DNA from: Flectonema sp. DT1601
Lineage: Eukaryota
Reading direction: 5' to 3'
Length of the DNA: 64,000 nt
Assembly: GCA_964019425.1 (NCBI GenBank)
Contig: OZ025783.1
Location: 558,001-622,000 of the forward strand
Every line of letters begins with the position of its first letter. Positions within the stretch are counted from its first letter, which is position 1. The notes under the pieces are model-generated. The model searched no databases and was not told the DNA's origin. It saw only the letters and a program-made list of their open reading frames with translations. Both the position numbers and the translations under genes were made by a program. Positions 4,787-64,000 of the stretch are shown piece after piece.

Positions 4787-4925
4787 AGTTGTGGAAGTAA
4801 ACCTGTTGTAATCATTACGCTGTGGAATTGTTTTTCTTTTCTTCTTTCTTATCCCACAGAAGTCGCTGCGTAACAGTATTGTATATAAAACAGTTGATAT
4901 TTATTTTGTTATCCAGACATCCAAA

Positions 4926-44401: not shown

Positions 44402-45255
44402 TTTATTTTTACGTTCTATTCATCTCCCGAAGTCTCCATTGTATGCTTTACAGCGTCTTTGAGTTGGGGAGTTTTTTTTTTTTTTTTTTCCATTCATTCT
44501 TCTGGTGAGGGTTTGCTTCTGGACTTAAGCAGTTGGTGATTGTTCTTTACTGATGGAAAAGGAAATGAAATGAAAAAAAAATAAATAAAAAAAAATAGGA
44601 TCTTTTTGTTGTTTGTCATGTTTCTTTTTAAACGACATTGTTGTTGGGCTTTAAAAGTTACCTCTTGCCTATATATCCCTTATGATGTATTCTGAAGTTT
44701 TTTTTTTTTTTTTTTTTTTAAATTTATAACTACACTTATTCATTTTGACGTTGTTTGTGTCTTTTCGCTGACTGTTTCCACAGCCAGAGATCGGATCAAA
44801 CAAGAGATATTTTTTAATTACCTCTCTAGTTTCTTTTTTTTTCTTGTTCATTTTTTATGTGCTGTCACGGTGTTGCTTATAAATAGTAACCATCAAAAAC
44901 ACATTCATTCCAAGCACATGTTAGTTCCTCAAAGAGCCTGATGAAGCGGTGAAGTAAGTAAAAAAAAGGTAAAGAAGAAAAAAACAAAATAAATAAAAAT
45001 ACCCAAGCATGCTCGCTCCCCCTACAATCTTAACATTATTTTATAGGTGGTAGGTTAGAGTTTTTGGTGAGGTTTTTATTTATTTTTTTTTTTTTCTGAA
45101 CCTAACAGGAAAAACACACTAAACATGAGGAAGAGGTTTTGTCATTTATTTTCCTCCCCCTCGTTTATTATTGTTTTGTACATTGTCATTCACTGAGATT
45201 ATTATCTCTGTTTTAAATAATTTTTTATTCTTAAAAAGCATTCCCATCCACTACA

Positions 45256-45777
45256 ATGGGAGGAATACACACTCGACTTACTGAGTCTCAAGGAATTGAA
45301 GAGCTTACAATAAATAAACGACCTGACTGGGTACCTGATGAAGCAACCACCGTATGCCGTAAATGTGATAAACATTTTAATGGACTTAGAAGAAGACATC
45401 ATTGCAGAGCTTGTGGACAGTTGTTTTGTAGTCATTGTGTAGGTCTTGGAATGTTAGGTAGTTTGGGGTATAAAGGACCTGTATTACAGTGTCATGTTTG
45501 TATGGAACAACTACTACATCAATTCAAACATCAAATATCAACGTTAGTCCTCCCTCGTACTGCTGATACGGAATCTGATGATGAAACTGAAGACGCATTG
45601 ATACCAATTCAACTGAATTACTCTCCCAGTTTAAAAGTAACAGTACCTCAGTCACCTAATCTAGGACCACCGATACTGTCTCTTTGTAGATTAGTTTCTT
45701 CTTCGTTGTCTTCGGTGAGTCCTTCTCCTGAAAGTAGATCTGATTCATCAACACCGTATTGGGAAGGAATAAATTGA
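45256..45777 (+). CDS. FYVE zinc-finger protein (PI3P-binding)
   Basis: WVPDE...CRKC...RRHHCRACG.LFC..C...C..C; N-terminal MGGIHT could be myristoylated. Confidence 0.9.
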   Translation: MGGIHTRLTESQGIEELTINKRPDWVPDEATTVCRKCDKHFNGLRRRHHCRACGQLFCSHCVGLGMLGSLGYKGPVLQCHVCMEQLLHQFKHQISTLVLPRTADTESDDETEDALIPIQLNYSPSLKVTVPQSPNLGPPILSLCRLVSSSLSSVSPSPESRSDSSTPYWEGIN

Positions 45778-47792
45778 TTCTTCTTAAATATAAGATACGA
45801 ATCCTTCTTATGCCAGTGCTAATCTGGAGACTCAATACATTCGAGTTATTCAAGTCACTCATCATGTTGACAGATCTCAACAAAATGGTGACTCCATTAC
45901 TGTTTGAGATATTTAACATTCCTATTTGGATTTGTTTCTTAAATCTTATCAAACAAAGTAGTTTATCTTTCGAATGAGATGATTTCCTTGGATGGAACAA
46001 TAGGCTATCCTGGTGAACACGTTATGTAAGTGAGAAATAAAATAAAATAAAAAATGACATAATACAAAAAAGTTTATTTGATGTTATTCAAATGCAGCCT
46101 TTGCGGTAATTTTTTTTTTTTTTTTTTTTTGGTGTGGACAAAAAAAAAAAAAAAGAATGCTGTAACAGGAAAAGAAGTGCGCCTGTCATGTGGAATAGAA
46201 TATGTCTTGGGGGTTGTAGGTCACGCGTTTTTTTTTACCCCTGTGTGTTTTCTTCTCGACAAGGAAAATAACAATAATAATAATAATAAAACGGAGTAGG
46301 AATAGATCGTCAAAGTAGGCATTACGTCCCACCCATTGCGGTTGATGTTTATCTCTGAAACATTCTTTTTATTATGCGTCTTTGGTCGCTGACCGTTACA
46401 AGTGTTGTTTGGTGTTTGTGGTGTTCTTTTCTGCTTTAGTTGGAACATCGAGGATGCAACTTCTTGTTCTTTTTTTTTTTTTTTTTAAATACTTGCGAGT
46501 AAAAAAGTTATATACAATTTTACACTATTCTACCTGATGAAAAGTCACAACAAAATATCCTTCGCATTTCCCCCCTCTTATTTTTCCTTATTATTGTATT
46601 TTGCTAATTAATTGTTGGGATTTAGATCTTTTTTTTTTTTTATTTTGTTTTCTTATTTCTAAAGTGATTAGAAAAGGGAACCCAATTCAGTAAAACATTT
46701 TTTGGGCGTCGTGAAAAAAAAAATAGTTTTTGTTCATTTTGGTCATCTTTTTTTTTGTAGTTTAATATTGTTGGCTTTGAGTATGAAGCTGTAAGAAATA
46801 AAAAAAACAGTTCTGTTTCCCGTAGTTTTTAAAATTTCTCGTTTTTTTTTTTCTTTTTTTTTTTTTTGCCCCCCTTTCCCCTTTCAGTTTAGCCTTATTA
46901 CTTATTTTAGTATTAAAAAGTTATTACTGTTTTCTACATTGTCAAACAATCACTCTGCTGTCTTTCCTTCACTATAACACTTTTTTCTGTGGCTCACACT
47001 ATCGTGTTTTTGAGTTCACCTTTTGAGACTAATTTAAAAAAAGAAAAAAGAAAAAAAAAAACAGTTGTAGTTGATTTTTTTTTGTTCTACTGCCTTACCT
47101 TTTCCACTCAAATCACGAGAACGTAATTAGTATTGATGAGCTACTCACGCTTTGCATAATTTAATTTTTATTTTTTTTTGGAAGAGAGCATCTTTTGTGG
47201 TTACTTCTGTTCATTTTTTTTTCTTCTGTTTTTAAGAAATGTTTAAACACTTCAAATACATTTCTTCTGGTTGGGTTTGCTTCATGGTTCATGGTTGAAA
47301 GTTAAAGAGTCGAAGGAACTGAGAGATTGTTGTTAGTATCTGAAACAACATCGATCTTCATTAGGATGATATTTTATCCTTTTTTTGTTTTCTTTTTGAA
47401 GTGGAGGATCGATGTGGTGTGGTGTAGGCTAACTTTTTTTTTTTGCAAACACATTTTGTATGTGCTTTCTGGTGACATTCCTCAATCAAAATGTCAAGTT
47501 AGTGTTGTTACTGTCTTTGACTCCGTGTGGTGATTTGTTGGAATTTAATTTTTTTTAATTTTTTTTTTTTTGGCTTTAAAAGCCATTAGGAATGTTCCTG
47601 CAAAAACGTGTCTCAGTTTCATCGGCTCGTCACAACTCACGAGAGTTACGTGAAGCAAAACTACTCCCTTTTTTTTATTGTTATTATTTTATTAAAAAAA
47701 AAAAAGAAATCAAATTGTGACCGACATATGGCATTGTTATTGTTATTTATTATTATTTTTTTTTTGTTATTTAAATCTGTTTAGTTATTATT

Positions 47793-48933
47793 TCTTGCAT
47801 CCTGATCCCTTTAAAAAGAAAAAAAAAATAATAAAGAGATCGATGCAGGGCTACATTTGTTATGTCGAACTCTCTAACACGGCAAACACGTTGTTGTGAA
47901 TGATGTGCTAACCTGAGCTGCGTGGATGTATTTTTAAAAAAGAATTTATACGGAGTTAGGCTTTTTATAATTCCCCAGCAGGTGGTGCAGTCGTTGAGTG
48001 GTTTTGGAGTGAACTGTTTGTTCTTGCGTATACTCTTCACCGCAGGCAAAGAAAAAAAAAAAAAAAAAAAAAAACTGTTTACTTAATAATCTACATCCTG
48101 ATCCCTTAAAGTACAACGGGATCGATGTAGGACCGCATTGATAACCTAATTGTCTTTTTGAGGGCAAATTTTTGACAAAGTATTTGGTTGATTCAGAATG
48201 TAAAATTTTTAATTGTTGCTTAGTCACTTCTTGTTGGTTTAATAGTAGTTAAATAAATCTCCCTTTTTTTTTTTTTGCTCAAATAATTTTTTTTTTTTAA
48301 ATTTTTTATTTCGTCTTAAATAACAATATGCATCCCGATCCCTTCGAACACAGAAGGATCGATGCCATCTTTCATTTTTTTTTTTTTTTTTTTTTTTTTA
48401 CATCCACACTTTCGTATAGAAGGAAATATAACTGAGCTGGTTGATCAAAAGGTTCGCAACTCCGTTTTGATCTCCTTGTTTTTCACCCCTCTGTTCGTTA
48501 GGAAAAGTTCATTATCTCAGCAACTAATGTTAAATTATTATTATGTTGTTTATGATACAATACATTTGTATTTTACGTACAAAATCGAACAGTTAACCCC
48601 CCCGTTCGTGAGCAAAAAAACGCTTTGGGTGTTCGTTTTGGGGGGTTTTCTGATTTCTAACTTGCAGCGCCAAGCCCAATGCAAATTGATTCTACAACCC
48701 CAGTGTACTTCACCTCCAAAGGAATTTATGGAACAAGGTCAAAAGCTCAATTTTATATGTTCTTTTCTTTTTTTTTTTTTTTTGAATGAAAAAAAATAAT
48801 GTTCACTGGTTAATCTTCTCCCACGAGAGTTGTTACCAACCTTCCAGTGTGATGTAAATTATGTGTTTTCTTGCATTTGTTTGATAGTGTTGTCCTCATC
48901 CTGATCCCTTGACACAAATAAAGGATAAGATGA
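47793..48933. repeat. Dispersed family of four hairpin elements sharing CATCCYGATCCCTT...GAT(C/AA)GATG
   Basis: Copies at 47793-47850, 48090-48131, 48328-48368 and 48896-48933; outer stems differ in sequence but remain complementary. Confidence 0.75.
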
Positions 48934-49854
48934 ATAGCATATTATTAAAAAGAAATTCATCAACAGTTAGTTGACACGTACAATTATCTGTTAGCTTAGT
49001 TTCATAAAACGACCAGAGTTTAAGTAAGTAGTTGTTCTACTTTTTTTGCTTTCTCTTCGTAGCAGCCTTATTGGGCGTTTACTTTCTTTTTATGAAGCAA
49101 GGTTTTTGTGCTAAAAGGACACTCGTTTAACCTCCTTTAGCCTTCAGCCAAATTCCCTGCCCTTCCTTCTTCCTGTTTTTGATAAAACGGTTCATCAAAT
49201 GGAAAGTTTCTCCCTTCCCCCCTTTTTTTTATTCACAACAAACGACCTTAGCGATTAATTTATTTGTTTGATAGCTCTTGCTAAAATAGCATAATCAATA
49301 ACCCTAGTATATTGATCTTAGGCGGAGGGAGACTGTAAACTGGTGAGCGGCTTAGCCGTGTTAATGGTGTTTTGCTGTGGTCTTGTAAGGTAAGAGTTAA
49401 GTGACTGTGTTCAATTTTATCGTTTTTATTTATCTCCTTCATTCCCCTTCTATCCCTATTATTTGCCTACCCTTTAATTTTTTTTATTATGCGCTATTTT
49501 AGCTTATTATTACGTTATTTATTTATTTATGTTTTTTTTTTTCTTCTTTTTTTTTTCCCCCTCCGTTGAGCAGAGTGTTTGGGAAGTCAGCGCTATCGCT
49601 TTAGGCTGTCCCACAATCGTGTAAGGCTTTAGTACATCTGGCCTAGTGTATGAAAGAAAGAAATACTTCATTGAACTCTTGTAGAAGTCAAATCATAATA
49701 GAGAGGGTTTCACGTTGACTGAATAATCTTCAGTGACTAGGTGACCCAACTCCTTCTAACTGACTTCCTCGATTTAGTATGCATGATTGAGATCACGGTT
49801 TCCGTTATTTTTCTTTTTTTTACTTTCCTCTACTTGCGTTGGATTGTAGTTAGC

Positions 49855-49891
<37 letters not shown>

Positions 49892-50568
49892 CCCCTCTTT
49901 TTTTAAAAAAATCCAATTTCTATTTTATTATTTTTTATTGAACTAATTATTTATTTTATTCTATTTTTTTTTTTTTTTATCAGTTTTTTCTGGTTTGATT
50001 TACCACTACTGACGAGAGAAACGAAACGATAAAAACCCCAAAAAAAGGTTTAAAAAAAAAAAACAAAACCCACCACATAACGTTAGATAATCACGGTAGC
50101 ACAACTACCTTGTTGTCTGCAGGGCTAAATCGCTAACCGGTATGTAATCCATTAACGGATTTGTTCCAGGCAGTAGTTATTCTGGAAGGCACGATGGTGA
50201 AAACCATCATAAGTTCTATTGAGAAGCTGCTTCTGACCGAATGGTTTTGGTGGTGGGTTGTGACCAACGGAATTCATATTTTAACTGAGCACCGTCTACT
50301 ATTGATCTATTGTAACACCAAAAAGAAATGATTTTTAAAAAAAAAAAAAAAAAAACATTTCTTTCCGATCGTTTAAACGAAAAACTGTCTCGAATCAACG
50401 ATGAACAAGAAGACTGTTCAGTATCCGCACGGCACACTGTTCTGTTGGTAGATAATGTTTTCTATGAGAGTTGATTATGAGTAAAACTTGACTTATGTTG
50501 AATGTCTTTGTTTTATTATTTTTTTTTCACTTCGCTTTTACAGGAATACGATGTAACACAAAAAAAAG

Positions 50569-51756
50569 ATGATAATAATATTTAAAATAATACTCACACT
50601 CTCTCTGTGTATCTCTGTAAGATCTGATATACCAAAAGGAGAGATAGCCAATATCACAAATGGCGCACAAGCATTGATAACGGCAGGTAGATTTCACTGC
50701 CCAGATTGTAACAGCTCAACAGACTGTGGAAAGTATGCATCTGTTGGGAAGAGACAAGCAGACACTGAATGGAGACTTTGGAAGAGTGATTATCACTACA
50801 AGGACGAACAACTATCGGGAATGAAATTATGCCTCCGCCAGTGGATGATTGGATGTAATTGTCCAACAGCACCTTGTCTTTGCAACTCATTTTCGGAAGT
50901 CTGCATCGCTTCGTCAGCTCTCTTTGATGAGGAACACCGTCTTCATCCTTATGAAATATGCAGTACTGAAGCATTTATGAATCCTGGTTCTGTAACTTTA
51001 GTAATTACAATCCCATTGTTTCTTACTATTGCTTCTCTTTGTCTTGTTGTTATAGCAGTTCATTATTCATTTGTTCATGGTTTCGCTACATGTCCTCCTG
51101 CCCTCAGTAGGCTGCCTATAATGTTGTTGTCGGCATTGCTTATTGCGTATTCGTTTCTGACGTTTTTCTCGCCGTATTTTACAACTGGAATCGCTGGTGT
51201 GTTCGTTGCTATCCTGGCGTTGTTTTCGCATACAATCGCACATGCTGCTGAGATTGGCAATAAAATTGATAAAGGACACAGATGGCTATCCTTTGCAGCC
51301 TTCACAACTATTGTAGTAGTGTACACAATATGGGGGGCTGGATATCCAAACAGAGCTGGCTTGTCGGCAGACGAGTTAGGAGCGGATTGCAGTAAGTTCT
51401 ACGGATTCTTTGTTATAGATCAAAAGTTAACACCTCCGGGTTTTAATAAAGAGGTAAAATATTGGGGTTACTGTGAACGCGAATTTATTGCTGACACACT
51501 ATGGAATGTTACAGCTGTTATATGGGTTGGTCTACTCATTAGTGCCCTTCACTTATACACACTTGCTGCGCAGACAACAGCTACTCGGATTGCTGAACAA
51601 GAAGACTTAGAAGGAAAGGTTGCTGGTGGTCCAGGAACATTCCTCGTATCTCGTAGCGCTCCTGGAATGAGAAGAGGTAAGGAACCAATTTCAGGAAGTG
51701 GTACCAGCATTCCTTCAGTACAGAGTTACAGTGATGTTCATGTTATGTTGACATAA
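50569..51756 (+). CDS. Membrane protein with signal peptide, Cys-rich ectodomain and about five TM helices
   Basis: Signal-like MIIIFKIILTLSLCISVRS; ~10 Cys in the ectodomain; five hydrophobic stretches; Cys pair in the last loop (CSKFYG...YWGYC). Confidence 0.8.
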   Translation: MIIIFKIILTLSLCISVRSDIPKGEIANITNGAQALITAGRFHCPDCNSSTDCGKYASVGKRQADTEWRLWKSDYHYKDEQLSGMKLCLRQWMIGCNCPTAPCLCNSFSEVCIASSALFDEEHRLHPYEICSTEAFMNPGSVTLVITIPLFLTIASLCLVVIAVHYSFVHGFATCPPALSRLPIMLLSALLIAYSFLTFFSPYFTTGIAGVFVAILALFSHTIAHAAEIGNKIDKGHRWLSFAAFTTIVVVYTIWGAGYPNRAGLSADELGADCSKFYGFFVIDQKLTPPGFNKEVKYWGYCEREFIADTLWNVTAVIWVGLLISALHLYTLAAQTTATRIAEQEDLEGKVAGGPGTFLVSRSAPGMRRGKEPISGSGTSIPSVQSYSDVHVMLT

Positions 51757-54485: not shown

Positions 54486-55976
54486 ACTTAACGCTAAGCA
54501 ACCACACTACTACTTTCTGCTTCTATTGTAATTATTTACCCTTTCTGTTCTGATATGAAATAGTACTTTCAGAGGATCCTGTGGCAGATAGAGAGCAGCA
54601 CCTTCATGTTACCTTGGTAGTTGACAATTGTAAATTGTCAGCAAATTCGCTCACCTATACTCGAAGGATCTTCTCATGTTGTGAAGAAGTGATGAGAAAG
54701 TGCTGCCTTTATCTGACTTCCCATCCCCTCCCAGTCCCCCGTTTCCCTCACCCCGTTAGTTTCGCTATCATGCGGTAAATACAGTGGAAAAAAAAAAAAG
54801 ATCAAAAAAAATAATAATAATCATACTTTCTGTGTGGTCTTCGGTCTCTTAGCCCCCACTGATTTTTCTTTTTTTTATTTTCACAACGTTTCGCCTGTAT
54901 GACTATCGACCTATGACACTTGCCTATATAAGAAACATTTGTGAGGGCTGAGTAATATTTTTACTTGGCAAAACTGTGTTGGGTTCGACACTTTATACTT
55001 TAATAGTTGTTGAGTCTATCTCTGTATGGCACTGCAAGAAACTGCCCTCAGAGATATTTAAGGGGGGAGGTAAAATCTACCTATTTAAGACAGGCCATGC
55101 AGCATCCGATTAAAAAAAATAATAAATTATTGCTTCAAACTGCAATATTTGTTGTGTAATTTTTTTTTTTTATATTGACAACTCGTTTTCTTCCTTCTCA
55201 CAAGCCTATCTTGTTTTGTTTGTTTGGTAGTCAAAATCAACGAACAGTTCGCATTCATTCTTTGCGCGTGTGGAAAGTGTAGTCATAAAATTTACTTGTT
55301 TCTCTCACTCACGTGTCTTGTGTTGGTTTCCAATATATTTCAAAGCCACGGATGAATAAGTAATTTTACGCGCAGCCGAAAAGATATCCATTATAACTCC
55401 GTCAGGTTTCTCTGTACCCCCCTTCCGTGTTGTTCTTGGTTTTATTTTATTTTTTATTTCTCTCTTTTGAGATTCGTGTTGAAACCTTCTTTTATTATTA
55501 TTTTCTTTTATACCATAGCGGCCTTTTTATATAAGGTATTGATTGGCAGCGCGGAATAGTTTTCTATGTCTCAGTCTGACTGGCTTACTGTTTTCGTGCA
55601 CACAAAATTTAATTGATAAGTTATACCTTACTCATAAGCCAATTCTTTGTTAAAGCTGTTTTAAAATTTCATTCAGAGCTACCCTTTTTGTGTGAGATTC
55701 ATTGCTGTCATAAGTATGCATATTTCCAAGAAAGCACAAGAAACGAGAGGAAAAAAAAGAGGAGAAAAAAAAAATTGTGTCAAATCATCGGCAAAATGTA
55801 TTGTGGAAAAAAAAAAAAAAAAAAGTGTCGGTCGAATAAAAAGTAATTATTTTCTGCTTCACTTAAACAGGATGGCTGCCCAGATGTAAGAGACTCTTTC
55901 GTGATGTAATTACATTTGATTAATTAGCAGTCTTCGTTTGAAAGCAATTACCTTATTTTGTATTAGAAAAAAGAAA

Positions 55977-58900
55977 ATGAAGGAAGTAGAAATGCGAAAA
56001 ATTCATAACTTGAAAGAAGAGTTACTACAACACGAGGGAGGACCTGCTGAGCAATCTGTTAGGGCTAGTGATTACGTAAAGACTTTAAATGCCGCAGCAT
56101 CTGGGATAATAAAATCAAAAGGAGACATCGATCAAGCTGCCCGCCTTCTAAATGAAGCAGAGTTTATAACCAGAAGGGAGGAGGAATATTTTCCTGGTTC
56201 TAGTGGTGAGCTACTCCGAGAGGAGTACCGAGCAGCAACATATGCAAGTTTAGCGTGTTTGTCGAGGCATAATGGTAGCTGTGATGACGCTGTTTTATAT
56301 CTGTTGGAGACCGCTTCTCTTGAAGGAGAACCTTCACCACACACTAACTTATCTCTAGCGATGTTACTTATCGACATGCAACGATATGATGCTGCTATAA
56401 CTTGTGCTGGGCAAGCAGTACGAGAAATGTCAATCCGTCATAAAGTTGCTACCACACGAGGAGAAGTATTACCTCGTTCTGAACAGTCTCTATTAGCCGC
56501 ATCATATCACATACTTGGTAAGGCACAGTTACAGAGTTCGGTGTCAGATCGTAGAGAGGAATCTCACAGTACCTTATCTTGTGGATTAATGCATGCAAAG
56601 TCTCTTGGTATTCAGTCAGAAACATACATTGAAATATCAAACACTATAAAACACTGTGTAAACCCCCGTCGTGATAGCACTGATCAAAGTAGTCATATAT
56701 TTCCACTTGAAGCGACTCCACAAAAAAGAAGATTCACACCTCCTGCTAGGGAAACTCAGAAGTGGGGAGATAGTTCTCTTCCGCAACTTCCTCGTAATGG
56801 GAGTGGTAGTGGAGACAGTGGAAAATTCTTTTATAAACGAAACGTGGTAGACATTCTCCCAGCATTGCCGCAACAACCACAACCTCCACATGATAAGTTT
56901 AACGCTACAGCACCAGCTCGGATGTCAGTTCACAGGACTTCCCTTTCTAAAAAAGCCTTGCCAAGTCCCAAACTTGGAGCGACATACCCGTCGTGTATTC
57001 CACCAGCTGACCCATCGTCTGGTAATTTTGTAAGGAAAAAGATTTGCAACACATTTTCACACCTGGATTTCGGCACCGACCCAACGGTAGTTGCTGCGCG
57101 GCTCTGCAATGCAAGTAATGAAAATGAGTTTATAAATCTTGTTGCGGGCATTACTTTCTTTGGAAGTTCACAAATAAAGCATACTTTAAACGGAAATGAC
57201 ACCGTCCATACAACTTGGAGATCGTTTTCAGGATTGAAAGCAACTCATTTACTCATCGCATGTGATGAGCGAAAAGAACTTTGGGTTGCAGCGCAGTCAA
57301 AGAATGCGCCGATCAGAAAAAATGGACTGAAGATAGAAACGGTGGCTGACAATATGGTAATCGGGGATCGATTGTTATTAGGAAGTAAGAACGTTGCATG
57401 TGTAGTTCGATCACCATTACCTGCATTAATTCCAAGAAAACCATCAGTAGCGCCACTTAGCAATGCAGTAGCGAGACCAATTAGTGGAGGTTCTCAAAGA
57501 AAGGTTTCCCTACCAAGACAATCTCCTATCATTACTGATAGTTACACATCTACTCCGGAGTGGGAGAAGTTAAATCATTCAAACATCAGACAATATATTG
57601 ATTTCTTACAACGTGAAGTTGAAATAGAAGAAGCAGCGCTAGCATCACCTTGTTCGAAAGCTTATATTTATCCAACTCCCCCACCAGTTTCTCCTCCGTC
57701 AAGACCGAGAGTACTCCAGCAAAATGAACCAGACGACTATCAAAGAGAACAACCATCTGAAGAAGGTTTGAGATCTGCTCTTGAGCTTTGTGCTGAAGGA
57801 TGTATGTGGACTACTGGTCTAGTCAGATTCGAGAAAGAGAGGGAACCTCATGACAGTGATGCCGAGTCTAATGTCTCTACAGACACTGATGATTTGTTTC
57901 CTTCACTGTCGAAATGTCATAAAGTTTCACAAACTGATAATTCAAAAACATGCATCTGGCTTGCTGGTGTTATTAAATTAGACTACGATATTGACTCTTT
58001 AGCATCTGAGATATCCCAGGAGGACAACACTTTACCATTTCTGAATGTGGTACTACAACAGGGTACTGAATCTTCTTTAGTATGGCTTCGTGGTGTTGTT
58101 AATTTAGTTCCGGATTTATTTTTAGGAGACGATGACACTGCGAGTTACTCCAGTGACTCTTGTAGTACTACTGAATTAGATGAAAGGGTTCTGGTGAATG
58201 ATAGCTTCCCAGCATTGCAATGCACAGCGAGAGGTCATGAGCTGGACCTCATGTGGTTGGCAGGAGTTTCGAATTATAAGAAATATCCTCTTGTAACCTC
58301 ACATGATAATCATAAGGTTCCAGCGCTGACAATGTTAATGTCTTTAGGAAGCTTCGATCAATTAGAATGGATACACAGACTTTGTCATATCATTAATGAT
58401 GATGATGATGATGATGATGATGACACTGATAGCAGTAGTGATGAATCTAATTTCTCATTTTGTGGAGTAGAACAGAATCATCAAATACCAAACAAGTTCT
58501 CAGCACTTAAGTGTGCAGTAGGTTCTGATATCAAATCGTTAATATGGTTATCAGGTGTCGCACGTTATGAATATTATCCATTACCTCAACCAATCTCTGA
58601 TGATGAAAGTTGTTCATCTGAATACTCTTTTTGTAGTACACTAAATGATCATGAAATTCCAGAAAAATTTCCAGCTTTGAAATGTACTGCTGGAGGGATG
58701 ACGTCTTCTCTAATGTGGTTAACGGGAGTCACTCGATATGAAAAGTATCCGACTCCTCCAATTGTGAAGTCAGTTATCAATAATCCGGAACCGACCTCTA
58801 ATTTAGTAATGAATGATAGGAGTGATCGTTTCTCATATTCCAAACTAGTGTTCTTGTTAGATTGTGTTGATCGATCAGAAGTGAAATCGTTATCTCTTTT

Positions 58901-59165
58901 GTATGACATACACGATGGGATCTTTGATGAAGAAAATTTAAATGAAAGCGCTGCAACAGTCCAGCGATGCTTTCGATGTTATGCAGCTCGAAAACACTAC
59001 CGACAGCGTTACTTCTTTAGACACCTTTCAGATGAGGATCGCGAAGAAGCTGCTGCGTTCATTCAATTCCACGTTCGAAGTTTCCGCCTTATTCGCTCTG
59101 CTAAAAAGGAACTCGCCATGCGAAAGACTCTAATTCAGAATTACTTATCATCAGTTTTTGATTAA
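55977..59165 (+). CDS. Large protein (~1062 aa) with N-terminal TPR-like helices, internal Trp-containing repeats and two C-terminal IQ-like motifs
   Basis: TPR-like TYASLACL...DAVLYL and NLSLAMLL...YDAAITCA; IQ-like ATVQRCFRCYAARK and AFIQFHVRSFRLIR; first ATG 55977. Confidence 0.8.
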   Translation: MKEVEMRKIHNLKEELLQHEGGPAEQSVRASDYVKTLNAAASGIIKSKGDIDQAARLLNEAEFITRREEEYFPGSSGELLREEYRAATYASLACLSRHNGSCDDAVLYLLETASLEGEPSPHTNLSLAMLLIDMQRYDAAITCAGQAVREMSIRHKVATTRGEVLPRSEQSLLAASYHILGKAQLQSSVSDRREESHSTLSCGLMHAKSLGIQSETYIEISNTIKHCVNPRRDSTDQSSHIFPLEATPQKRRFTPPARETQKWGDSSLPQLPRNGSGSGDSGKFFYKRNVVDILPALPQQPQPPHDKFNATAPARMSVHRTSLSKKALPSPKLGATYPSCIPPADPSSGNFVRKKICNTFSHLDFGTDPTVVAARLCNASNENEFINLVAGITFFGSSQIKHTLNGNDTVHTTWRSFSGLKATHLLIACDERKELWVAAQSKNAPIRKNGLKIETVADNMVIGDRLLLGSKNVACVVRSPLPALIPRKPSVAPLSNAVARPISGGSQRKVSLPRQSPIITDSYTSTPEWEKLNHSNIRQYIDFLQREVEIEEAALASPCSKAYIYPTPPPVSPPSRPRVLQQNEPDDYQREQPSEEGLRSALELCAEGCMWTTGLVRFEKEREPHDSDAESNVSTDTDDLFPSLSKCHKVSQTDNSKTCIWLAGVIKLDYDIDSLASEISQEDNTLPFLNVVLQQGTESSLVWLRGVVNLVPDLFLGDDDTASYSSDSCSTTELDERVLVNDSFPALQCTARGHELDLMWLAGVSNYKKYPLVTSHDNHKVPALTMLMSLGSFDQLEWIHRLCHIINDDDDDDDDDTDSSSDESNFSFCGVEQNHQIPNKFSALKCAVGSDIKSLIWLSGVARYEYYPLPQPISDDESCSSEYSFCSTLNDHEIPEKFPALKCTAGGMTSSLMWLTGVTRYEKYPTPPIVKSVINNPEPTSNLVMNDRSDRFSYSKLVFLLDCVDRSEVKSLSLLYDIHDGIFDEENLNESAATVQRCFRCYAARKHYRQRYFFRHLSDEDREEAAAFIQFHVRSFRLIRSAKKELAMRKTLIQNYLSSVFD
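58398..58421 (+). repeat. (GAT)8 microsatellite encoding poly-Asp
   Basis: Read directly. Confidence 0.9.
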
Positions 59166-59786
59166 TTCTTCGGTGAAATGAATATACTGCCGAAGTTCTT
59201 TTTATTTATCTTTTTGTTTTAGCCATTCACTTGGTTGTTGAGAAGTTCGTCGTTCGTTTTCTTTTTTTTTTCTTTTAAAAGAAAGAAAAGTTGTGGTGGA
59301 CATATCTCGCCAACATTGTACACGTTATCCCTACCGCTGGCTTTAGAAGTCGTCATTATTGACTTTGGTCTCCAACACGATTGATCAAAGTGAGTAGCCG
59401 ATACTTATATAATATTGGTTTCTGTAATAGCCTTCTGATGTGTCATCAAATGTACGATGTGTGTTATGTTTTCCAACATAGCACCATCTAATGTAATTCA
59501 AAAGAACAGCGTCGAAAAATAAAGAAAAAAGGGGTTCTGATTACCACCCGCCATATTGCCGTACTCTTTATGCATTTCTCCAATTGTTATTATCACAGAG
59601 ACCATGGTTACAGTTAACACTTGTCCAGTCTGTGTTTTGGTTAGTTGTAGTCGTTATTATTTAACCTTTAACATCATCTGTCTTACAGGTTGTTTTTGTG
59701 TCAATCGTGTGGTTTGTGTGGTGTTATCTTGTCCTCGTATCACACGGAATTTTATTATTTATTTCAACAGTTGGGTGGCTGACAAG

Positions 59787-62700
59787 ATGCAGGGCTACCA
59801 GACTGCCTGGTCCCTGGCAATTGTTATGATGTTTGTATCTGTGCAGGGACTTCCTGGGCCACCGTCAAATGTTGAAATGCATTTTTGGGACACCCGTTGT
59901 AATAGTTTAATGTATAGAAGCTGGTCATACCTAACTGAGGGCCAAGTGAGCTTACAAAGTGTTGCTTTCTCTGAAGAAGGACTTTACAGCTGGGATGATC
60001 ATACTAGCCGGGTATCCAACGACAATGTAATTAGACAATCAGAGTTAGTGGCTGCTGGCTTTGGAGCTGCGTGGTTTGTTAATGCGAACTCTTCATTTAC
60101 AACAAATAAACAATTATGGTTATCTACTATTGATAGCTACGAAGATCAATTTCTTACTAGCAGTGACTTAGTTAGGATTTATGGTTTTCCTTGGTACCGT
60201 TTTGAAGCGTTTGAGTTGTTTTCATTTTACAGACGGCCAGTTGAAGAAGTTGTTCGTCCATTGTTACTAAATTTGGACTCACCTGCTGACTTACATTCTG
60301 ATGCACGGCAAGTGATATTTTCACATGTCGATCCTGACTCTAAGCTGATCAGAACGATATCACTTTTTGAAGTATTTAGGAAGTCGAGAGTCTTATTGAA
60401 TGTCGGTAGTACTCAAAGTGATTTAACGAATATCATAATTACGTCTCCGTTTGTTAGTTCTGATTGGGTCGTCTACACGGAGTTTGATGTGAATTCTAAA
60501 AAATCTCAAGTCTGGATTGAAGACACCAGCATTGAAACAAGAGAACTCGCACTTCATCCTGATCTACAAACATTTTGGGGATCTGTGTGGAATACTAGTT
60601 CACCTCTTGTTGTTGATGGTGGTGATTACGCGGCAGTTGCATTTTGTTCTTTTCTTTTATCAGAAATTGATTCCTTGCAACTTATTAATGATGAAGACAC
60701 TTACAGGGTTGTCCCGTTACAAAAGAATAGCAAACTACACGTCACAGTAATGCTATTCCCTTCTCGATTTAGATGTGAAATCACATACGACATGTGGAGC
60801 AGTATTATTCTATCTACTGTTAGTACTATCACTCTTGTTGATTACCTTGGAGGAGGAGGTTTTCTATTTCTTTCAATCTCTTACAACGAAGATGGTCAAC
60901 AACGTTACGGAATTATCGCTTATCCGATTAAAACATGTATTGGGGAAGAAGGAGAAAAACCATTTCTAGTTCCTAACTCAGTCTCACTCACACCTATCAA
61001 GTTAGTTACGTCATCATACGATGGTGTAATATTCGCAACAGCAAACGTGTTATTCACTATTAAAGTTTATGCAAAGGGTGCATTCGGAGAATACAATACA
61101 CTAATTTGTAGGTCCTTTGACGAAGACTTTCCAACCATCGGAGCGGTGTCGTTATTAAATGATCAGTTGATCTATCAAAAAAAGAATTTGGAAGCTGAGG
61201 CGAGCTATCAATTTGCTCTAAGTCAAGGCAGTTCTGCTAAAGAGCTTCAAGCTTTGAAATCAACTATAAATGAAATGCTTAGAATGGATCTTGATAAAGA
61301 TAATGATCGACATTGGGATGCCGTGGATCGATTCCCTCTGCGATCAGCTTTTTTCAATGACAGTGACAACGATGGAATTGGTATGTACATCATCCTACTA
61401 CAACATAATAAAATACAACCCACGCAACCACTCAACTAAAACAGGTGACCAAGGAGACATAGTAGCCAATGACGATAGCTGTGCTAACGATCTGAGAACA
61501 AACCCTGCTGGGTGTTGGGATGACATTAGAGTTCTTTATATAACTTGGTCAGTTGTAACTCTTTGTGTTATCTTAATTGCTGGATCCATCGGATATTACA
61601 ATAAAAAAAGTAGAGAGAAACTCTACACCAAAAAGAAAGCAACAGCAGACGAATGGATCAATAGACAATGGAGAGAAACAACAAGACATGACGTGACTGA
61701 AGAAGAGTTGTTTACATTGATGGCTGATCTTGACGACAGAATTCAGCATGAACAGGGCATGTCTAATTACACTCTTCATACGTTTGCAATATCAAAACGA
61801 AAACAAAACAAAAAAAACAATACAGGAATGCTAAAGTCTGGTGAAACTGTTGTACAAGCATTCTTATTCCTTTTGACAATGGCATCTGTGGTTCTTTGGA
61901 TTTCTTCAATGTGGTCACTCAATGGTTTTAATTTAGCTGAAGAGCACGCTCTAGCTTGGGTTGACTTTTATACCTCAACAGTGTTCTTGATTGATTTAAC
62001 CTACAGGTGGGTCTTCAGAGATGAAGGAGAATATTTAAACTTCAGAGACTACTGCCTTAAGAATTGGTACGACTTCCCTTCTCTCATATCTGACGTTCCC
62101 GGAGTCACTACTGCTGGACCTCTTAATATTTTAGTAGTTGCGAGACTTATTCGTGTTTTGAGAGTATTTAAAATGTTTCGAGTCGTTAGATTATATCACA
62201 AACTAACTCAACAACAAGCAGTCTTGGGATTAATTCTAAGATACGACACAATCTGGCAAGCTGTATTCGTCTGTGGTCTTATATTGTCATTGGGAGTCGT
62301 CATAAAACTATTTGAACAGCAAGAGGATCCTGAATTTGAACCGTATGCAAATGTTCTGTGGTTTTGTGTTGTCACAGTTACGACTATTGGATATGGTGAC
62401 ATGGTACCGGTGAATCCTGTTGCGAGAATTCTCGCAGTATTTTTGATGGTTTCGGGTATTGGGATCATCGGAGTTTTAACTGCTTCCATGGGAGACGCCG
62501 TTCGCTACTCCGGTGTCGACAAAGGAATGATGATGGAACGTGTTAAAAAATTACAACAAGGCAAATGGCGACTCGCACTCGAATACTTGCGTGTTTCTGT
62601 TTTATACAACCCGATCTTTAATGTTATTAAACCTTTCGCAAGAGGGAAGTGTGCCCATCCGAGTTGCACATGTCCATTAATTACTTCAGTGATTGGTTGC

Positions 62701-64000
62701 ATTAAAATATCATACGGCTACTACAAGTACCATGCTAATTGCTTTCGTTGCCATGGTTGTGGTCGTTCTCCATGGCATGGAGGATCTCTTAACAACACTG
62801 GTGAGTGTTGGGTTGTTACAGATGCGACACGCAGTCCTAGGCAACGTGGTCATCGTGGTTCGATTCCAGGAAAGTATAGCAGGAAAGGTGATGAAGAAAC
62901 AATTGAGTTTCGCTGTAAAGCAAACATATACCTTCATAGATCATGTCTTCTTCGTGATCGAGGAGGGAAGGACGATCTAGCAGGGACCGCTAGATCAGAA
63001 TCTTCAAGACTCTCTCGTGGTTCTGGTGGTGGCACAACAACATATGGTGCTTCTGGTGGAGAAGTTGTTGTTGAGGAATTACTCGTTAAAGGTTTAACTG
63101 GTGCAGCATATCAATTTAATGGAACGTACATAAGAAAACCAGCCATAGATGATGACAGTCCTGTACTCTTTGATCATAAGAAGAGTAATGCTGTCGTTAC
63201 TACAGGTGATAGTCGTAAACATTGGATTCTTGTAAACCGTTCAGGGACACAAGAAACGTGTTATGCGACTGCGCATTCTCTTTTGGGGGAATGGACTGGT
63301 AGTAATCCAAAGTTTGGACAGCCTTCAGTTGATGATGGTTGTGCTCAACACCATTCATGGTGGAAGATGTACGACACGTTAGATATTCCTCCTCGAAATT
63401 TAATTCAACACTACGCTTCTCATCGAACAAAGAATCAATTCTTAACTCTTATCGGTTGTCTTGACGAATCTGCTGAAACTTCTGGCGGAAAGTTCTCAGC
63501 CGGAGGTGCAAAAAAACGCACCGACTACTCCACAACAATTGAAAAAGTGAGAACTCAAATAAAGGTTGTTACAGATTTTGGTGAGAGGAGAGTGTTATTG
63601 AGGGCTCCATGCCTTTTACAAGACCGCCTTCAACTTATTTTAAAAACACATAAATTACAAGAGAATGAAAAGGTTAAAAACTATGAATTACTAAGAGACC
63701 ACTTGGAGTACTTAATATACCAGAAGTGTGGAAAAAAACTGCAAGGAACAATGTTGGCAAAGGTTTTTTCTATTAGAGCTTCGTTAGAACTTAGCGCAGA
63801 AATTCAACAACAAAAAGCGAAACACCAACACATGTCTGATAATGCATCTCAGACTCCATCTGGGGTATCAAGTTGGGGTGAATGGGATGATGAAGATATT
63901 GATTGGAGTGACCCAGTAGAGTGGACACTTCATGAATTAGACAGATGCCTTATTGATCATGATGTGGATAAGTTAGATGCTTATCCTTCAATAAAAACAG
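59787..64000 (+). CDS. Voltage-gated K+ channel with signal peptide, large ectodomain, extra TM and LIM-like cytoplasmic domain; runs off the window end
   Basis: Exon 59787-61380, intron 61381-61444, then a frame open to 64000 (absent from the ORF track because it has no stop): S4 RLIRVLRVFKMFRVVRL (~62143-62193), filter TTIGYGD (62380-62400), S6 ARILAVFLMVSGIGIIGVLTAS. Confidence 0.88.
61757..61825 (+). other. Putative GC-AG intron, 69 nt, in frame and stop-free
   Basis: GCATGT donor (one change from the local GTATGT consensus) and A/C-rich 3' end AAAACAAAACAAAAAAAACAATACAG typical of introns in this window. Confidence 0.7.

What the first reader, a model, noticed from the sequence alone, without database searches (positions are those of the whole stretch)
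59787..64000. Receptor-like voltage-gated K+ channel hidden from the ORF track
Seen: signal peptide MQGYQTAWSLAIVMMFVSVQG, ~500-aa beta-rich ectodomain, acidic repeats DKDNDRHWDAVDRFP...DSDNDGIGDQGD spanning the intron, an extra TM (ILYITWSVVTLCVILIAGSIGYY), then a full S1-S6 channel with 6 basic S4 residues and TTIGYGD, then a long cytoplasmic tail. Known: ordinary Kv channels have cytoplasmic N-termini; BK channels have an S0 helix but only a short external N-terminus; DxDxDG...DxFP repeats are thrombospondin-type-3-like Ca-binding motifs common in prokaryotic surface proteins. Inference: a ligand-, Ca- or contact-modulated K+ channel with an architecture I do not recognise from described families.
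Basis: partly seen in the sequence, partly recalled or inferred. Interest (0 to 1): 0.8.

Follow-up and report, generated by a model that had tools for sequence, protein, structure and literature searches.

The report
Potassium channel with fused outer propeller
Once short introns are removed, as in a close relative's transcript, this protist gene is predicted to encode a voltage-gated-type potassium channel that carries on the same chain a signal peptide, a predicted seven-bladed propeller likely facing outside, and an extra membrane helix; this design is conserved in several protists and green algae, is not described in the papers searched, and would let outside cues tune the channel.

Summary
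Exon 1 (59787-61380) encodes a signal-peptide-like N-terminus and a 500-residue domain. A 64-nt GT-AG intron (61381-61444) joins it in frame to an extra helix (S0), an S1-S6 K+ channel core (six basic S4 residues, TTIGYGD) and a long tail that runs off the window.

The fusion is real:
- An 81%-identical transcript ORF (1480 aa) has exactly the predicted junction.
- Diplonema papillatum "putative potassium channel protein 2" (1486 aa) has the same layout.
- One metagenome contig encodes the same layout in a single uninterrupted 1274-aa ORF.

New points:
- A likely second intron, GC-AG and in frame (61757-61825).
- The ectodomain folds as a generic seven-bladed beta-propeller (VIA Z 19.4).
- Ectodomains of the diplonemid clade and of the other members (green algae included) are homologous (hhalign E 1.9e-26).
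- The acidic repeats are DxDxDG-type loops; Pfam TSP_3 membership is not met.
- The diplonemid clade adds a sub-threshold LIM-like zinc finger to the tail.
- The family forms its own clade (SH-aLRT 99).

Function is inferred: a tetrameric voltage-gated K+ channel tuned from outside through the propeller and S0. The design is present in databases as hypothetical proteins but absent from the papers searched. I rate it a new variant of a known kind.

The parts
59751..59770 (+). T-rich tract ending in ACAG, 16 nt before the start codon. This is the likely mRNA 5' processing (spliced-leader) acceptor.
   Evidence: Read from the sequence. The same ...ACAG lies shortly upstream of several other long-ORF start codons. 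Inferred, with no RNA data.
59787..59849 (+). Start codon and 21-residue signal-peptide-like N-terminus, with small residues at positions -3 and -1 (V-Q-G).
   Evidence: P0002 starts at the equivalent Met and P0004 starts at an aligned N-terminal position; both also start with a hydrophobic segment. No signal-peptide predictor was available. A 19-residue hydropathy window at threshold 1.4 did not flag this short h-region.
59889..61286 (+). Ectodomain, predicted to be a seven-bladed beta-propeller (residues about 35-500). It has two invariant cysteines (C38, C441) and three N-x-S/T sequons (101, 269, 524).
   Evidence: AF2 model: pLDDT 64.8, pTM 0.72, about 28 strands. VIA Z 19.4 to 15.5 against seven-bladed propellers over model residues about 35-510. 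Foldseek E 1.6e-6. Invariant columns; sequons. No Pfam family.
61287..61380 (+). First DxDxD..D..D.FP acidic loop and the start of the second (D.DNDGIG); end of exon 1.
   Evidence: The module is conserved in 12 of 13 relatives by regex. The 13th (P0019) has an R-for-K variant.
61381..61444 (+). Intron 1: 64 nt, GTATGT...AACAG, phase 1.
   Evidence: it holds an in-frame stop. The junction is identical to the contiguous sequence in the transcript ORF P0002 and in P0003 and P0004. The same GTATGT / A-rich ACAG pattern is seen at other sites in the window.
61445..61530 (+). End of the second acidic loop, plus the stalk with a conserved Cys-x10-Cys pair.
   Evidence: The Cys pair is present in 11 of the 12 rows printed (absent in P0018). 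It is also present in P0019, P0027 and L081.
61531..61599 (+). Extra transmembrane helix S0.
   Evidence: Hydropathy peak 2.19 at residues 559-577. It has an acidic flank before it and a basic flank after it. A hydrophobic helix sits at the same place in all relatives that cover it.
61600..61756 (+). Basic, probably cytoplasmic S0-S1 linker (first part).
   Evidence: conserved in the diplonemid clade.
61757..61825 (+). Candidate intron 2: 69 nt, GCATGT...ATACAG, phase 1, in frame and free of stops.
   Evidence: The 23 residues are absent from P0002, P0003 and P0004. Two genomic ORF calls from relatives (P0013, P0014) run into unrelated sequence at exactly this point. The 3' end is 68% A and ends in ACAG like intron 1. 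Not tested with RNA.
61849..62496 (+). S1-S6 channel core. S4 is about 62134-62202 and the TTIGYGD filter is 62380-62400.
   Evidence: Pfam Ion_trans and Ion_trans_2 above cut-off. PDB phmmer hits KvAP and KCNQ2 at about 4e-12 to 1e-11. Invariant filter and S4 residues in 15 rows.
62650..62946 (+). Cys/His-rich, LIM-like segment of the tail (core motif at 62728-62760).
   Evidence: Pfam LIM is sub-threshold: 12.1 to 19.7 bits against 22.9. 5 of 10 weak PDB rows are LIM proteins, the best at E 0.24. By the regex (plus the alignment), the motif is present in 8 rows (P0001-P0007, P0019), which include all 6 rows of the diplonemid-type clade of the tree; it is absent in the other family rows in that call.
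63076..63336 (+). Small beta-rich tail domain, specific to the diplonemid clade.
   Evidence: AF2 model of P0001, strands at 567-653 with block pLDDT 64-79. Alignment. No family or fold was assigned.
63475..63999 (+). Start of the family-wide conserved helical C-terminal region (GGKF ... YDRV). It continues beyond the window.
   Evidence: Nearly invariant columns F706, L751, D845, L858, R885, V886 and P908 of P0001. Helices with block pLDDT up to 89. P0001 shows about 121 further residues beyond the window end.

Best explanation
The gene at 59787-64000 (+) is predicted to encode a single polypeptide of about 1,480 residues once two short introns are removed; in it a signal peptide, a predicted seven-bladed beta-propeller, two DxDxDG-type acidic loops that likely bind Ca2+, a Cys-pair stalk and an extra helix (S0) precede a canonical S1-S6 K+ channel core and a long tail, and it likely works as a tetrameric, depolarisation-gated K+ channel whose voltage sensor would be tuned from outside through S0.

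Shown by the sequence and the calls:
- The reading frames, intron 1 and the exact junction in a relative's transcript.
- The K+ filter, six in-register S4 charges, and the S2 (W-x-D, F-x-x-D) and S3 (N-W-x-D) countercharge motifs.
- The hydrophobic S0, with acidic residues before it and basic residues after it.
- Homology of the whole ectodomain across the family.
- The same architecture in one uninterrupted ORF elsewhere.

Predicted:
- The propeller fold (AF2 plus structure search).
- Signal-peptide cleavage.
- Intron 2.

Inferred:
- The signal peptide puts the propeller in the extracellular or lumenal space, where the invariant Cys pairs would form disulfides.
- S0 returns the chain to the cytoplasm, so that S1-S6 adopt the usual Kv topology.
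- Four subunits would form the pore and four propellers would form an outer crown.
- S0 would pack on S1/S2 of the voltage sensor, as the single helix of DPP6 does on Kv4.2.
- Ca2+ occupancy of the acidic loops, or a ligand or contact on the propeller, would then shift voltage dependence or kinetics.
- The family-wide helical C-terminal region would serve assembly or gating. The LIM-like finger of the diplonemid clade would dock a cytoplasmic partner.
For: One protein:
- P0002 (transcript ORF, 1480 aa, 81% identical over the channel part, 61% over the ectodomain) reads straight through the predicted junction.
- D. papillatum P0004 (1486 aa) has the same layout.
- L081 2516-6340 is one 1274-aa ORF with ectodomain, acidic module, Cys pair, S0, S1-S6 (TTVGYGD) and a YDRV tail.
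- In all, 12 sequences carry ectodomain + module + S0 + core on one chain: P0002, P0004, P0008, P0015-P0021, P0027 and the L081 ORF.

Channel:
- Pfam Ion_trans 61.7 bits and Ion_trans_2 60.6 bits.
- PDB phmmer: KvAP 3.6e-12 to 7.9e-12, KCNQ2 6.2e-12.
- Filter and S4 residues are invariant in 15 of 15 rows.
- The S2 W-x-D and F-x-x-D motifs and the S3 N-W-x-D motif are present in 13 of 13 rows that cover them (read from the printout).

Ectodomain:
- AF2 pTM 0.72.
- VIA Z 19.4 (8wt1_A, rmsd 3.8, 296 aligned), 18.4 (2gop_B) and 18.4 (6gxs_A).
- hhalign of 6 diplonemid-clade ectodomains against 9 others, acidic module removed: probability 99.7, E 1.9e-26, 349 columns.

Outside location:
- C38 and C441 are invariant in 7 of 7 rows.
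- The stalk Cys pair is present in 11 of 12 rows.
- Three sequons in the ectodomain.
- Basic residues directly follow S0.

Distinct family: 14 family rows form a clade with SH-aLRT 99 against 6 other Kv, KCNQ and CNBD rows.

Analogy: the DPP6S single helix contacts S1 and S2 of Kv4.2 and changes gating (PMC8566240, abstract and passages).
Against: - No RNA from this organism. No run was listed, so both introns and the 5' end are unverified here.
- The internal acceptors end in ACAG, like the sites just upstream of gene starts. An in-frame ATG follows 61825 directly, and P0007 (853 aa, transcript ORF) begins at S1. An ectodomain-less isoform is therefore possible.
- The signal peptide was judged by eye only. 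The 19-residue hydropathy scan did not flag it, and only 6 of 11 relatives scanned had an N-terminal peak above 1.6.
- Propeller matches are generic: 618 chains reach Z>=8 and Foldseek TM is 0.4 or below. No ligand can be inferred. Residues 1-56, 120-151 and 504-531 of the model are below pLDDT 50.
- Ca2+ binding rests on motif spacing only. On the L081 module: TSP_3 E 0.63, EF-hand_1 E 3.7, lanmodulin-type PDB hits E 0.003.
- The whole-chain model of P0001 is poor (pLDDT 52.3, pTM 0.34), so S0-sensor packing is not modelled.
- The S4 of L081 has irregular charge spacing, so voltage sensing may not be uniform in the family.
Confidence: 0.6

Rival explanations
1. The propeller is a passive module for anchoring, sorting or assembly. 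It might tether the channel to a cell coat, the flagellar pocket or another cell, or be needed only for export. The channel would then gate like any Kv channel, independent of what the propeller binds.
For: The propeller matches only generic seven-bladed folds, including lectins and integrin alpha propellers that mediate adhesion. No ligand site can be named. The S0-sensor contact is not modelled.
Against: The acidic module, Cys-pair stalk and S0 are the most conserved part outside the pore across distant lineages. That suggests a constrained mechanical link rather than a loose tether. Known single-helix partners of Kv, BK and Nav sensors do alter gating (PMC8566240 passages).
Confidence: 0.2
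2. The protein resides in an internal membrane such as a food vacuole, lysosome or contractile vacuole. The propeller would face the lumen and sense lumenal content, and the channel would set organelle membrane potential.
For: A signal peptide and disulfide-type cysteines fit a lumenal location as well as a surface one. The named members are a diplonemid and three green algae, one of which (Cymbomonas) is described as particle-feeding (abstract of PMC5741210). The long tail could carry sorting signals.
Against: Nothing in the calls speaks for an organelle. No targeting motif was tested. A canonical charge-rich S4 is more typical of plasma-membrane Kv channels (established knowledge, recalled).
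Confidence: 0.15
3. Ectodomain and channel are separate products in this organism. A spliced leader would be added at 61445 or 61826, giving a secreted propeller and an ordinary Kv channel.
For: Both acceptors end in ACAG, like sites upstream of gene starts. An in-frame ATG lies at 61828. P0007 begins at S1. The protein database holds the window's own ORFs only as two separate calls (P0012, P0001).
Against: A consensus GTATGT donor sits at 61381. The closest relative's transcript is cis-spliced exactly there. Use of 61445 would leave S0 without an in-frame start codon nearby. The fused layout occurs in 12 sequences, including one uninterrupted ORF. A propeller product alone would end in half an acidic module.
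Confidence: 0.05

Closest known systems
Diplonema papillatum 'putative potassium channel protein 2' (P0004) and unnamed relatives (P0002, P0003, P0013, P0014, P0019)
   Same: Orthologue-level match: 50% identity over the channel and tail and 34-36% over the ectodomain. It shares the signal peptide, propeller region, acidic module, Cys pair, S0, S1-S6, LIM-like motif and YDRV tail.
   Different: It is only a database name. I found no paper that describes its architecture or function. The window's copy has a 23-residue in-frame insert that is probably an intron.
Green-algal hypothetical proteins: CYMTET_49532 (Cymbomonas), PPROV_000675300 (Pycnococcus) and Pedinophyceae sp. YPF-701 (P0008, P0016, P0017)
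   Same: Same order of parts. The ectodomain is homologous (hhalign E 1.9e-26), and the acidic module, Cys pair, S0, core, YNP and YDRV motifs match.
   Different: 24-25% identity to the window protein. They have a longer S4 with more charges, a longer acidic S0-S1 linker, and no LIM-like finger or beta tail domain. They form a separate clade.
Prokaryotic KvAP-type and animal KCNQ (Kv7) channels
   Same: These are the best sequence and fold matches to S1-S6: KvAP 6uwm/1orq/2a0l at 3.6e-12 to 7.9e-12, KCNQ2 at 6.2e-12, and KCNQ2/4/5/1 at the top of Foldseek. They share a charge-rich S4 and a T-x-G-Y-G-D filter.
   Different: They have no signal peptide, ectodomain or S0. The KCNQ C-terminal calmodulin-binding domain (PF03520) is absent here. 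The family falls outside them in the tree.
BK (Slo1) channels
   Same: An extra N-terminal helix (S0) places the N-terminus outside and sits next to the voltage sensor (recalled knowledge).
   Different: The BK external N-terminus is short and lacks a signal peptide and a folded domain (recalled). BK has an RCK gating ring in the tail, and no such family was found here.
Kv4 with DPP6/DPP10 auxiliary subunits
   Same: A large extracellular domain containing a beta-propeller is held on a single helix that contacts S1/S2 of a Kv voltage sensor and changes gating (PMC8566240, abstract and passages; propeller noted in the PMC9409431 listing). Propellers of the DPP4/8/9 peptidase family, to which DPP6 belongs (recalled), are among the Foldseek hits of the ectodomain.
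   Different: DPP6 is a separate polypeptide of type II orientation with an added hydrolase-fold domain (recalled). Here the propeller is on the channel chain itself, in type I orientation, with an acidic loop module. No sequence relationship was shown.
TRPW1 of choanoflagellates (bioRxiv 10.64898/2026.06.15.732144)
   Same: A seven-bladed propeller is fused N-terminally to a channel of the voltage-gated superfamily in a protist (passages seen).
   Different: That propeller is a cytoplasmic WD40 domain on a TRP channel. Here it follows a signal peptide, needs an extra helix to cross the membrane, and sits on a K+-selective core.

Membership tests
Voltage-gated-type K+ channel (Pfam Ion_trans PF00520 / Ion_trans_2 PF07885) | Profile match above the curated cut-off | tested here: met
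   61.7 bits (cut-off 25) and 60.6 bits (cut-off 22.5).
Voltage-gated-type K+ channel (Pfam Ion_trans PF00520 / Ion_trans_2 PF07885) | K+ selectivity filter T-x-G-Y-G-D | tested here: met
   TTIGYGD at 62380-62400. G, Y, G and D are invariant in 15 of 15 rows.
Voltage-gated-type K+ channel (Pfam Ion_trans PF00520 / Ion_trans_2 PF07885) | S4 with at least four basic residues at every third position, plus acidic partners in S2 and S3 (definition recalled) | tested here: met
   R,R,R,K,R,R in register. The S2 W-x-D and F-x-x-D motifs and the S3 N-W-x-D motif are in 13 of 13 rows covering them, read from the printout.
Voltage-gated-type K+ channel (Pfam Ion_trans PF00520 / Ion_trans_2 PF07885) | Voltage-dependent, K+-selective current | not testable with these tools
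   Needs electrophysiology.
BK / Slo1 | S0 helix with an external N-terminus | tested here: met
   Hydropathy peak 2.19 at residues 559-577, with an acidic flank before and a basic flank after. Topology is inferred.
BK / Slo1 | RCK gating-ring domains in the tail | tested here: not met
   No such Pfam family at E<=10 in P0001, P0002, P0003 or P0004, or in the window tail.
KCNQ (Kv7) | C-terminal KCNQ_channel domain (PF03520) | tested here: not met
   Absent. It is present in the true KCNQ1-like hits P0009 and P0011.
Shaker-type Kv1-4 | N-terminal T1 / BTB_2 domain (PF02214) | tested here: not met
   Absent. The N-terminus is a signal peptide plus propeller instead.
Thrombospondin type 3 repeat (PF02412) | Profile match above the cut-off (25 bits) | tested here: not met
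   No hit at E<=10 in P0002, P0003 or P0004. 10.2 bits, E 0.63, on the uninterrupted module of L081.
Thrombospondin type 3 repeat (PF02412) | D-x-D-x-D-G-x-x-D-x-x-D spacing (motif recalled) | tested here: met
   Two loops with this spacing. The first has R in place of G, and F in place of the Cys before Pro. EF-hand_1, Excalibur and TSP3_bac score equally weakly, so only the generic DxDxDG class is supported.
LIM zinc finger (PF00412) | Profile match above the cut-off (22.9 bits) | tested here: inconclusive
   12.1 bits (P0001), 17.8 (P0004) and 19.7 (P0003). 5 of 10 weak PDB rows are LIM proteins, the best at E 0.24.
Seven-bladed beta-propeller (S9-peptidase / PD40-like) | Fold match over most of the domain | tested here: met
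   VIA Z 19.4, 18.4 and 18.4 with 279-300 residues aligned over model residues 65-513. About 28 strands.
Seven-bladed beta-propeller (S9-peptidase / PD40-like) | Sequence membership in a known repeat family (PD40, WD40, FG-GAP) | tested here: not met
   0 Pfam families at E<=0.1. Atlas gives only leads under 0.9.
Propeller-S0-Kv family (unnamed; typified here by P0004 and P0008) | Homologous ectodomain, acidic module, Cys pair, S0, Kv core, and YNP and YDRV tail motifs, in that order | tested here: met
   The window groups inside the family clade (SH-aLRT 99).

The most novel reading that the evidence does not exclude
The propeller is a true extracellular receptor. Binding of a ligand, a prey or particle surface, or Ca2+ at the crown is transmitted through the rigid acidic-loop and disulfide stalk and through S0 to the voltage sensor. 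On this reading, a single polypeptide converts an outside chemical or contact cue directly into a K+ conductance change. That would be a receptor-operated 6TM Kv channel, a coupling for which I found no precedent. A further layer is possible: spliced-leader use of the intron-2 acceptor (ATG at 61828) would yield an ordinary propeller-less channel from the same gene, so cis- versus trans-splicing would switch the receptor on or off.
Probability: 0.2. Interest if true: 0.85.

Novelty: new variant of a known kind. Interest (0 to 1): 0.6.

Why it matters
Voltage-gated K+ channels are textbook proteins with cytoplasmic N-termini. Where they have large outside domains, these come from separate auxiliary subunits (DPP6/10, BK beta/gamma).

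Here the outside domain, a likely Ca2+-binding hinge and the sensor-adjacent helix are built into the channel chain itself. The design is old enough to be shared by diplonemids, three green-algal lineages and other protists.

If the propeller tunes gating, the family gives a simple single-gene system for studying how an extracellular domain talks to a voltage sensor. It would also point to an unrecognised sensory or excitability pathway in abundant marine protists. D. papillatum has an orthologue and can be grown in the lab (recalled), so the question is testable.

Tried and rejected
- **Own genome:** none is held, so paralogues and the missing 3' end could not be read. The end is known only from the database ORF P0001.
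- **RNA evidence:** no RNA holder was listed.
- **Earlier findings:** nothing was returned.
- **A GT-AG version of intron 2:** the only nearby GT (61761) with AG at 61825 or 61836 gives 65 or 76 nt and breaks the frame (read). The GC-AG reading (69 nt) was kept.
- **Whole-chain fold of P0001:** poor (pLDDT 52.3). Its Foldseek search returned only Kv-type cores and nothing for the tail.
- **Tail searches:**
  - PDB phmmer gave only weak LIM rows.
  - Atlas gave no usable hit.
  - A four-copy complex prediction of P0001 residues 700-915 gave no verdict.
- **Ectodomain by Atlas:** leads under 0.9 only (unnamed cluster at 0.86; a cluster with TSP_3 on 57% of members and WD40/PD40 clusters at 0.80).
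- **Viral origin:** the scan of viral contigs found 331 relatives. All 80 loci kept match only core residues 139-408 of P0001, none the S0, module or tail.
- **Metagenome scan:** 601 pattern matches, of which only 1 was confirmed (L081).
- **PDB hits of the acidic module to designed leucine-rich-repeat proteins (E 2e-8):** rejected as a repeat-composition artefact of the LD-x-N/D-G-I-x-D pattern.
- **Splice acceptors:** sequence could not separate cis- from trans-splice acceptors, because both end in ACAG.
- **Conservation counts:** per-column counts for S2 and S3 were read by eye from the printout rather than computed.
- **Literature searches:** no paper describes this architecture.
  - The Cymbomonas genome paper (PMC5741210) mentions 'voltage-gated' only in its reference list.
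  - The D. papillatum genome paper is recalled but was not seen. Its supplements might list this gene.

Full report
**Setting**

The window is eukaryotic nuclear DNA.
- All 17 ORFs of 250 aa or more lie on the + strand.
- GC content is about 0.40.
- The nearest named homologue of the gene in question is from Diplonema papillatum.

I infer a diplonemid-type euglenozoan. No whole genome is held for it.

**Checking the observation**

The ORF list shows two overlapping frames, 59556-61439 and 61270-63999, the second open at the window end. Reading the DNA gives the following.
- The start codon is at 59787. It follows a T-rich tract that ends in ACAG at 59767-59770.
- The start is signal-peptide-like, about 21 residues.
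- Exon 1 ends at 61380.
- Intron 1 is 61381-61444 (64 nt), running from GTATGT to AACAG.
- The split Gly codon restores the frame, so the two halves of the acidic repeat join.

With this intron removed the frame is open for 1383 residues to the window end. The hydropathy scan finds the extra helix (peak 2.19 at residues 559-577) and the S1, S5 and S6 peaks. The channel half scores Ion_trans 61.7 bits and Ion_trans_2 60.6 bits. The ectodomain matches no Pfam family. S4 has R,R,R,K,R,R at every third position and the filter is TTIGYGD. The only slip is the first residue of the extra helix, which is V, not I.

**Is it one protein?**

A search with the channel half found 11 proteins at E<=0.001. 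Eight belong to this family:
- the window's own ORF call (P0001, 1031 aa, which shows about 121 residues beyond the window);
- a transcript-derived complete ORF of 1480 aa at 81% identity (P0002);
- D. papillatum 'putative potassium channel protein 2' of 1486 aa (P0004);
- five others.

P0002 and P0004 carry signal peptide, ectodomain, acidic module, extra helix, channel and tail on one chain. P0002 reads straight through the predicted splice junction.

A metagenome scan seeded with the module returned one locus, L081. Its ORF 2516-6340 encodes the whole architecture in 1274 uninterrupted codons. The fusion therefore does not depend on any splicing model. In all, 12 sequences show ectodomain, module, S0 and core on one chain.

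**A second intron**

The window has 23 in-frame residues between the S0-S1 linker and S1 that P0002, P0003 and P0004 lack. Several points suggest an intron.
- The stretch 61757-61825 is 69 nt and begins GCATGT, against GTATGT for intron 1.
- It ends in an A-rich tract plus ATACAG, like other GTATGT...ACAG candidate introns in the window.
- Its removal gives a junction that matches P0002 residue for residue, apart from one L/V change.
- Two genomic ORF calls from relatives (P0013, P0014) run into unrelated sequence at exactly this point, so an intron at this position looks conserved.

I rate a GC-AG intron here as likely, about 0.75. It is untested, because no RNA run could be listed.

**The ectodomain**

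phmmer against 1.84 billion representatives gave only five hits at E<=0.001:
- the window's own ORF;
- P0004 (1.2e-49);
- P0013 (2.9e-38);
- P0014 (9.0e-37);
- P0015 (1.3e-4), which matches through the acidic module only.

AF2 on a seven-row alignment gave pLDDT 64.8 and pTM 0.72, with about 28 strands. Residues 1-56, 120-151 and 504-531 are low.

Foldseek's best hits are the propellers of prolyl oligopeptidases, DPP8/9, DPP4, sortilin and tricorn (E from 1.6e-6, TM 0.4 or below). VIA-align over 48,161 chains gave these top scores:
- Z 19.4 (8wt1_A, rmsd 3.8, 296 aligned);
- Z 18.4 (2gop_B);
- Z 18.4 (6gxs_A);
- integrin alpha propellers near Z 16-17.

618 chains reach Z>=8. This is a seven-bladed propeller of no assignable subfamily.

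A profile-profile comparison set six diplonemid-clade ectodomains against nine from the other members, with the acidic module cut off. It gave probability 99.7, E 1.9e-26 and 349 aligned columns. The propeller is therefore ancestral to the whole family. Two cysteines (C38, C441) are invariant in 7 of 7 rows.

**The hinge**

Between propeller and membrane lies the best conserved non-pore element. It consists of two acidic loops with D-x-D-x-D-(G)-x-x-D-x-x-D spacing, the first ending in FP, followed by a Cys-x(7-11)-Cys pair and then the helix.
- A regex found it in 12 of 13 relatives. The 13th has an R-for-K change.
- Pfam TSP_3 is not met. There was no hit.
- On the uninterrupted L081 module, TSP_3 reaches 10.2 bits (E 0.63). 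EF-hand_1, Excalibur and TSP3_bac score equally weakly.
- PDB phmmer gives lanmodulin-type EF-hand proteins at E 0.003. It also gives stronger hits to designed leucine-rich repeats, which I regard as an artefact.

I therefore call these DxDxDG-type loops that likely bind Ca2+. This is an inference from motif spacing.

**The channel core and its relatives**

The best PDB sequence matches are:
- a bacterial pore (4h33, 4.8e-14);
- KvAP (3.6e-12 to 7.9e-12);
- KCNQ2 (6.2e-12);
- Kv1.2 (2.1e-9).

In the 15-row family alignment, the filter, the pore-helix W-F and the last S4 arginines are invariant. The S2 W-x-D and F-x-x-D motifs and the S3 N-W-x-D motif are present in all 13 rows that cover them (read from the printout).

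No T1, KCNQ or RCK domain is found.

A quick maximum-likelihood tree (20 rows, 650 columns, LG+G4) places the 14 family rows in one clade. That clade has SH-aLRT 99 against six Kv, KCNQ and CNBD outgroup rows. Inside it there is a diplonemid-type clade of six (100) and a green-algal clade of three (99).

**Distribution**

A second search, from the Cymbomonas member, found members in Pycnococcus provasolii and Pedinophyceae sp. YPF-701, plus five unnamed entries. A third search added P0027. All of these are named only 'hypothetical', 'unnamed protein product' or 'Ion transport domain-containing protein', or have no name. Viral contigs hold only generic K+ channel cores.

**The tail**

After S6 comes a nearly invariant N-P motif. 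In the diplonemid-type clade it is followed by a Cys/His-rich segment.
- Its core matches LIM fingers below threshold (12.1-19.7 bits against 22.9).
- 5 of 10 weak PDB rows are LIM proteins.

Next comes a small beta domain, then a helical region conserved across the whole family (GGKF ... YDRV). Three attempts gave no fold or assembly information for the tail:
- the whole-chain model (pLDDT 52.3);
- its fold search;
- the Atlas search.

A four-copy complex job also gave no verdict.

**How it most likely works**

Shown:
- one reading frame after splicing;
- an N-terminal hydrophobic start;
- disulfide-type invariant cysteines and sequons in the N-terminal 550 residues;
- a hydrophobic helix flanked by acidic residues before it and basic residues after it;
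- a complete Kv-type sensor and K+ filter.

Inferred:
- The signal peptide sends the propeller outside (or into a lumen).
- S0 brings the chain back in, so that S1-S6 sit in the usual orientation.
- Four subunits form a K+ pore opened by depolarisation.
- The four propellers form an outer crown, held by Ca2+-stiffened loops and a disulfide stalk.
- S0 lies against S1/S2 of the sensor.

The closest worked example is Kv4.2 with DPP6S. There, a single helix carrying a large extracellular domain contacts S1 and S2 and alters activation, inactivation and recovery (PMC8566240, abstract and passages). Here the same kind of partner is built into the channel chain, in the opposite membrane orientation. 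I put 0.85 on the architecture and channel identity, and about 0.4 on the tuning step.

**Rivals**
- The propeller is a passive anchoring or sorting module (0.2).
- The protein is organellar, with a lumenal propeller (0.15).
- The two halves are separate products made by spliced-leader addition at the internal acceptors (0.05 as the only form).

An additional short isoform is not excluded. The acceptors look like those before gene starts, an in-frame ATG follows 61825, and P0007 starts at S1.

**Novelty**

The sequences are in public databases, and one bears a potassium-channel name. Six literature searches found no description of a Kv-type channel with a signal peptide, a propeller ectodomain and S0. 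The nearest concept in print is TRPW1, where a cytoplasmic WD40 propeller sits on a TRP channel (passages).

I rate this a new variant of a known kind. It is conserved across distant protist lineages, and I give it moderate to high interest (0.6). The D. papillatum genome paper is recalled but was not seen, and its supplements could mention the gene.

Noticed in passing
window 1-64000: All 17 ORFs of 250 aa or more are on the + strand. The only feature found on the - strand is a tRNA at 1422-1493 (Rfam 66.8 bits). This fits one long unidirectional gene cluster, as in Euglenozoa.
   Followed up: partly
window 865, 6962, 11956, 17046, 40192, 61381: Candidate short introns share a GTATGT donor and an A-rich tract ending in ACAG. 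The same ACAG lies just upstream of many start codons (4926, 12410, 20804, 31227, 50569, 59787). Cis- and trans-splice acceptors therefore look alike by sequence.
   Followed up: partly
window 34267-44401: ORFs 34267-40233 (1988 aa) and 40295-44401 (1368 aa) are separated by a GTATGT...AATCAG stretch starting at 40192. They may be one gene for a protein of about 3,300 residues.
   Followed up: no
window 12410-15510: ORFs 12410-14464 and 14428-15510 overlap in different frames. This is possibly one gene with a short intron, or a frameshift.
   Followed up: no
window 44400-50570: A stretch of about 6 kb has no ORF of 250 aa or more. GC falls to 0.31-0.35, AT skew reaches -0.24, and there are T homopolymers of 25 and 33 nt (48375, 49859). 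It could be a large intergenic region or a transcription boundary.
   Followed up: no
window 55938-59165: The upstream neighbour (about 1,060 aa) has about six copies of a repeat containing (I/M/V/E)W(L/T/I)xG(V/L) followed by Y..YP in the later copies. It also has a poly-Asp run and a weak C-terminal IQ motif (14.8 bits, below cut-off). No other Pfam family was found.
   Followed up: partly
window 20804-26617: A 1937-aa ORF whose middle part (22-26 kb) has GC 0.48, clearly above the window mean of about 0.40.
   Followed up: no
P0001 C-terminus (beyond the window end): The window's own database ORF diverges from P0002 after ...DRI(H/Q)RSV and ends in a hydrophobic, Cys-rich stretch. A further intron probably lies just past the window.
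   Followed up: no
L081 2516-6340: The family member on this metagenome contig has an S4 with irregular charge spacing and a much longer S0-S1 linker. The neighbouring genes on that contig are on both strands.
   Followed up: no
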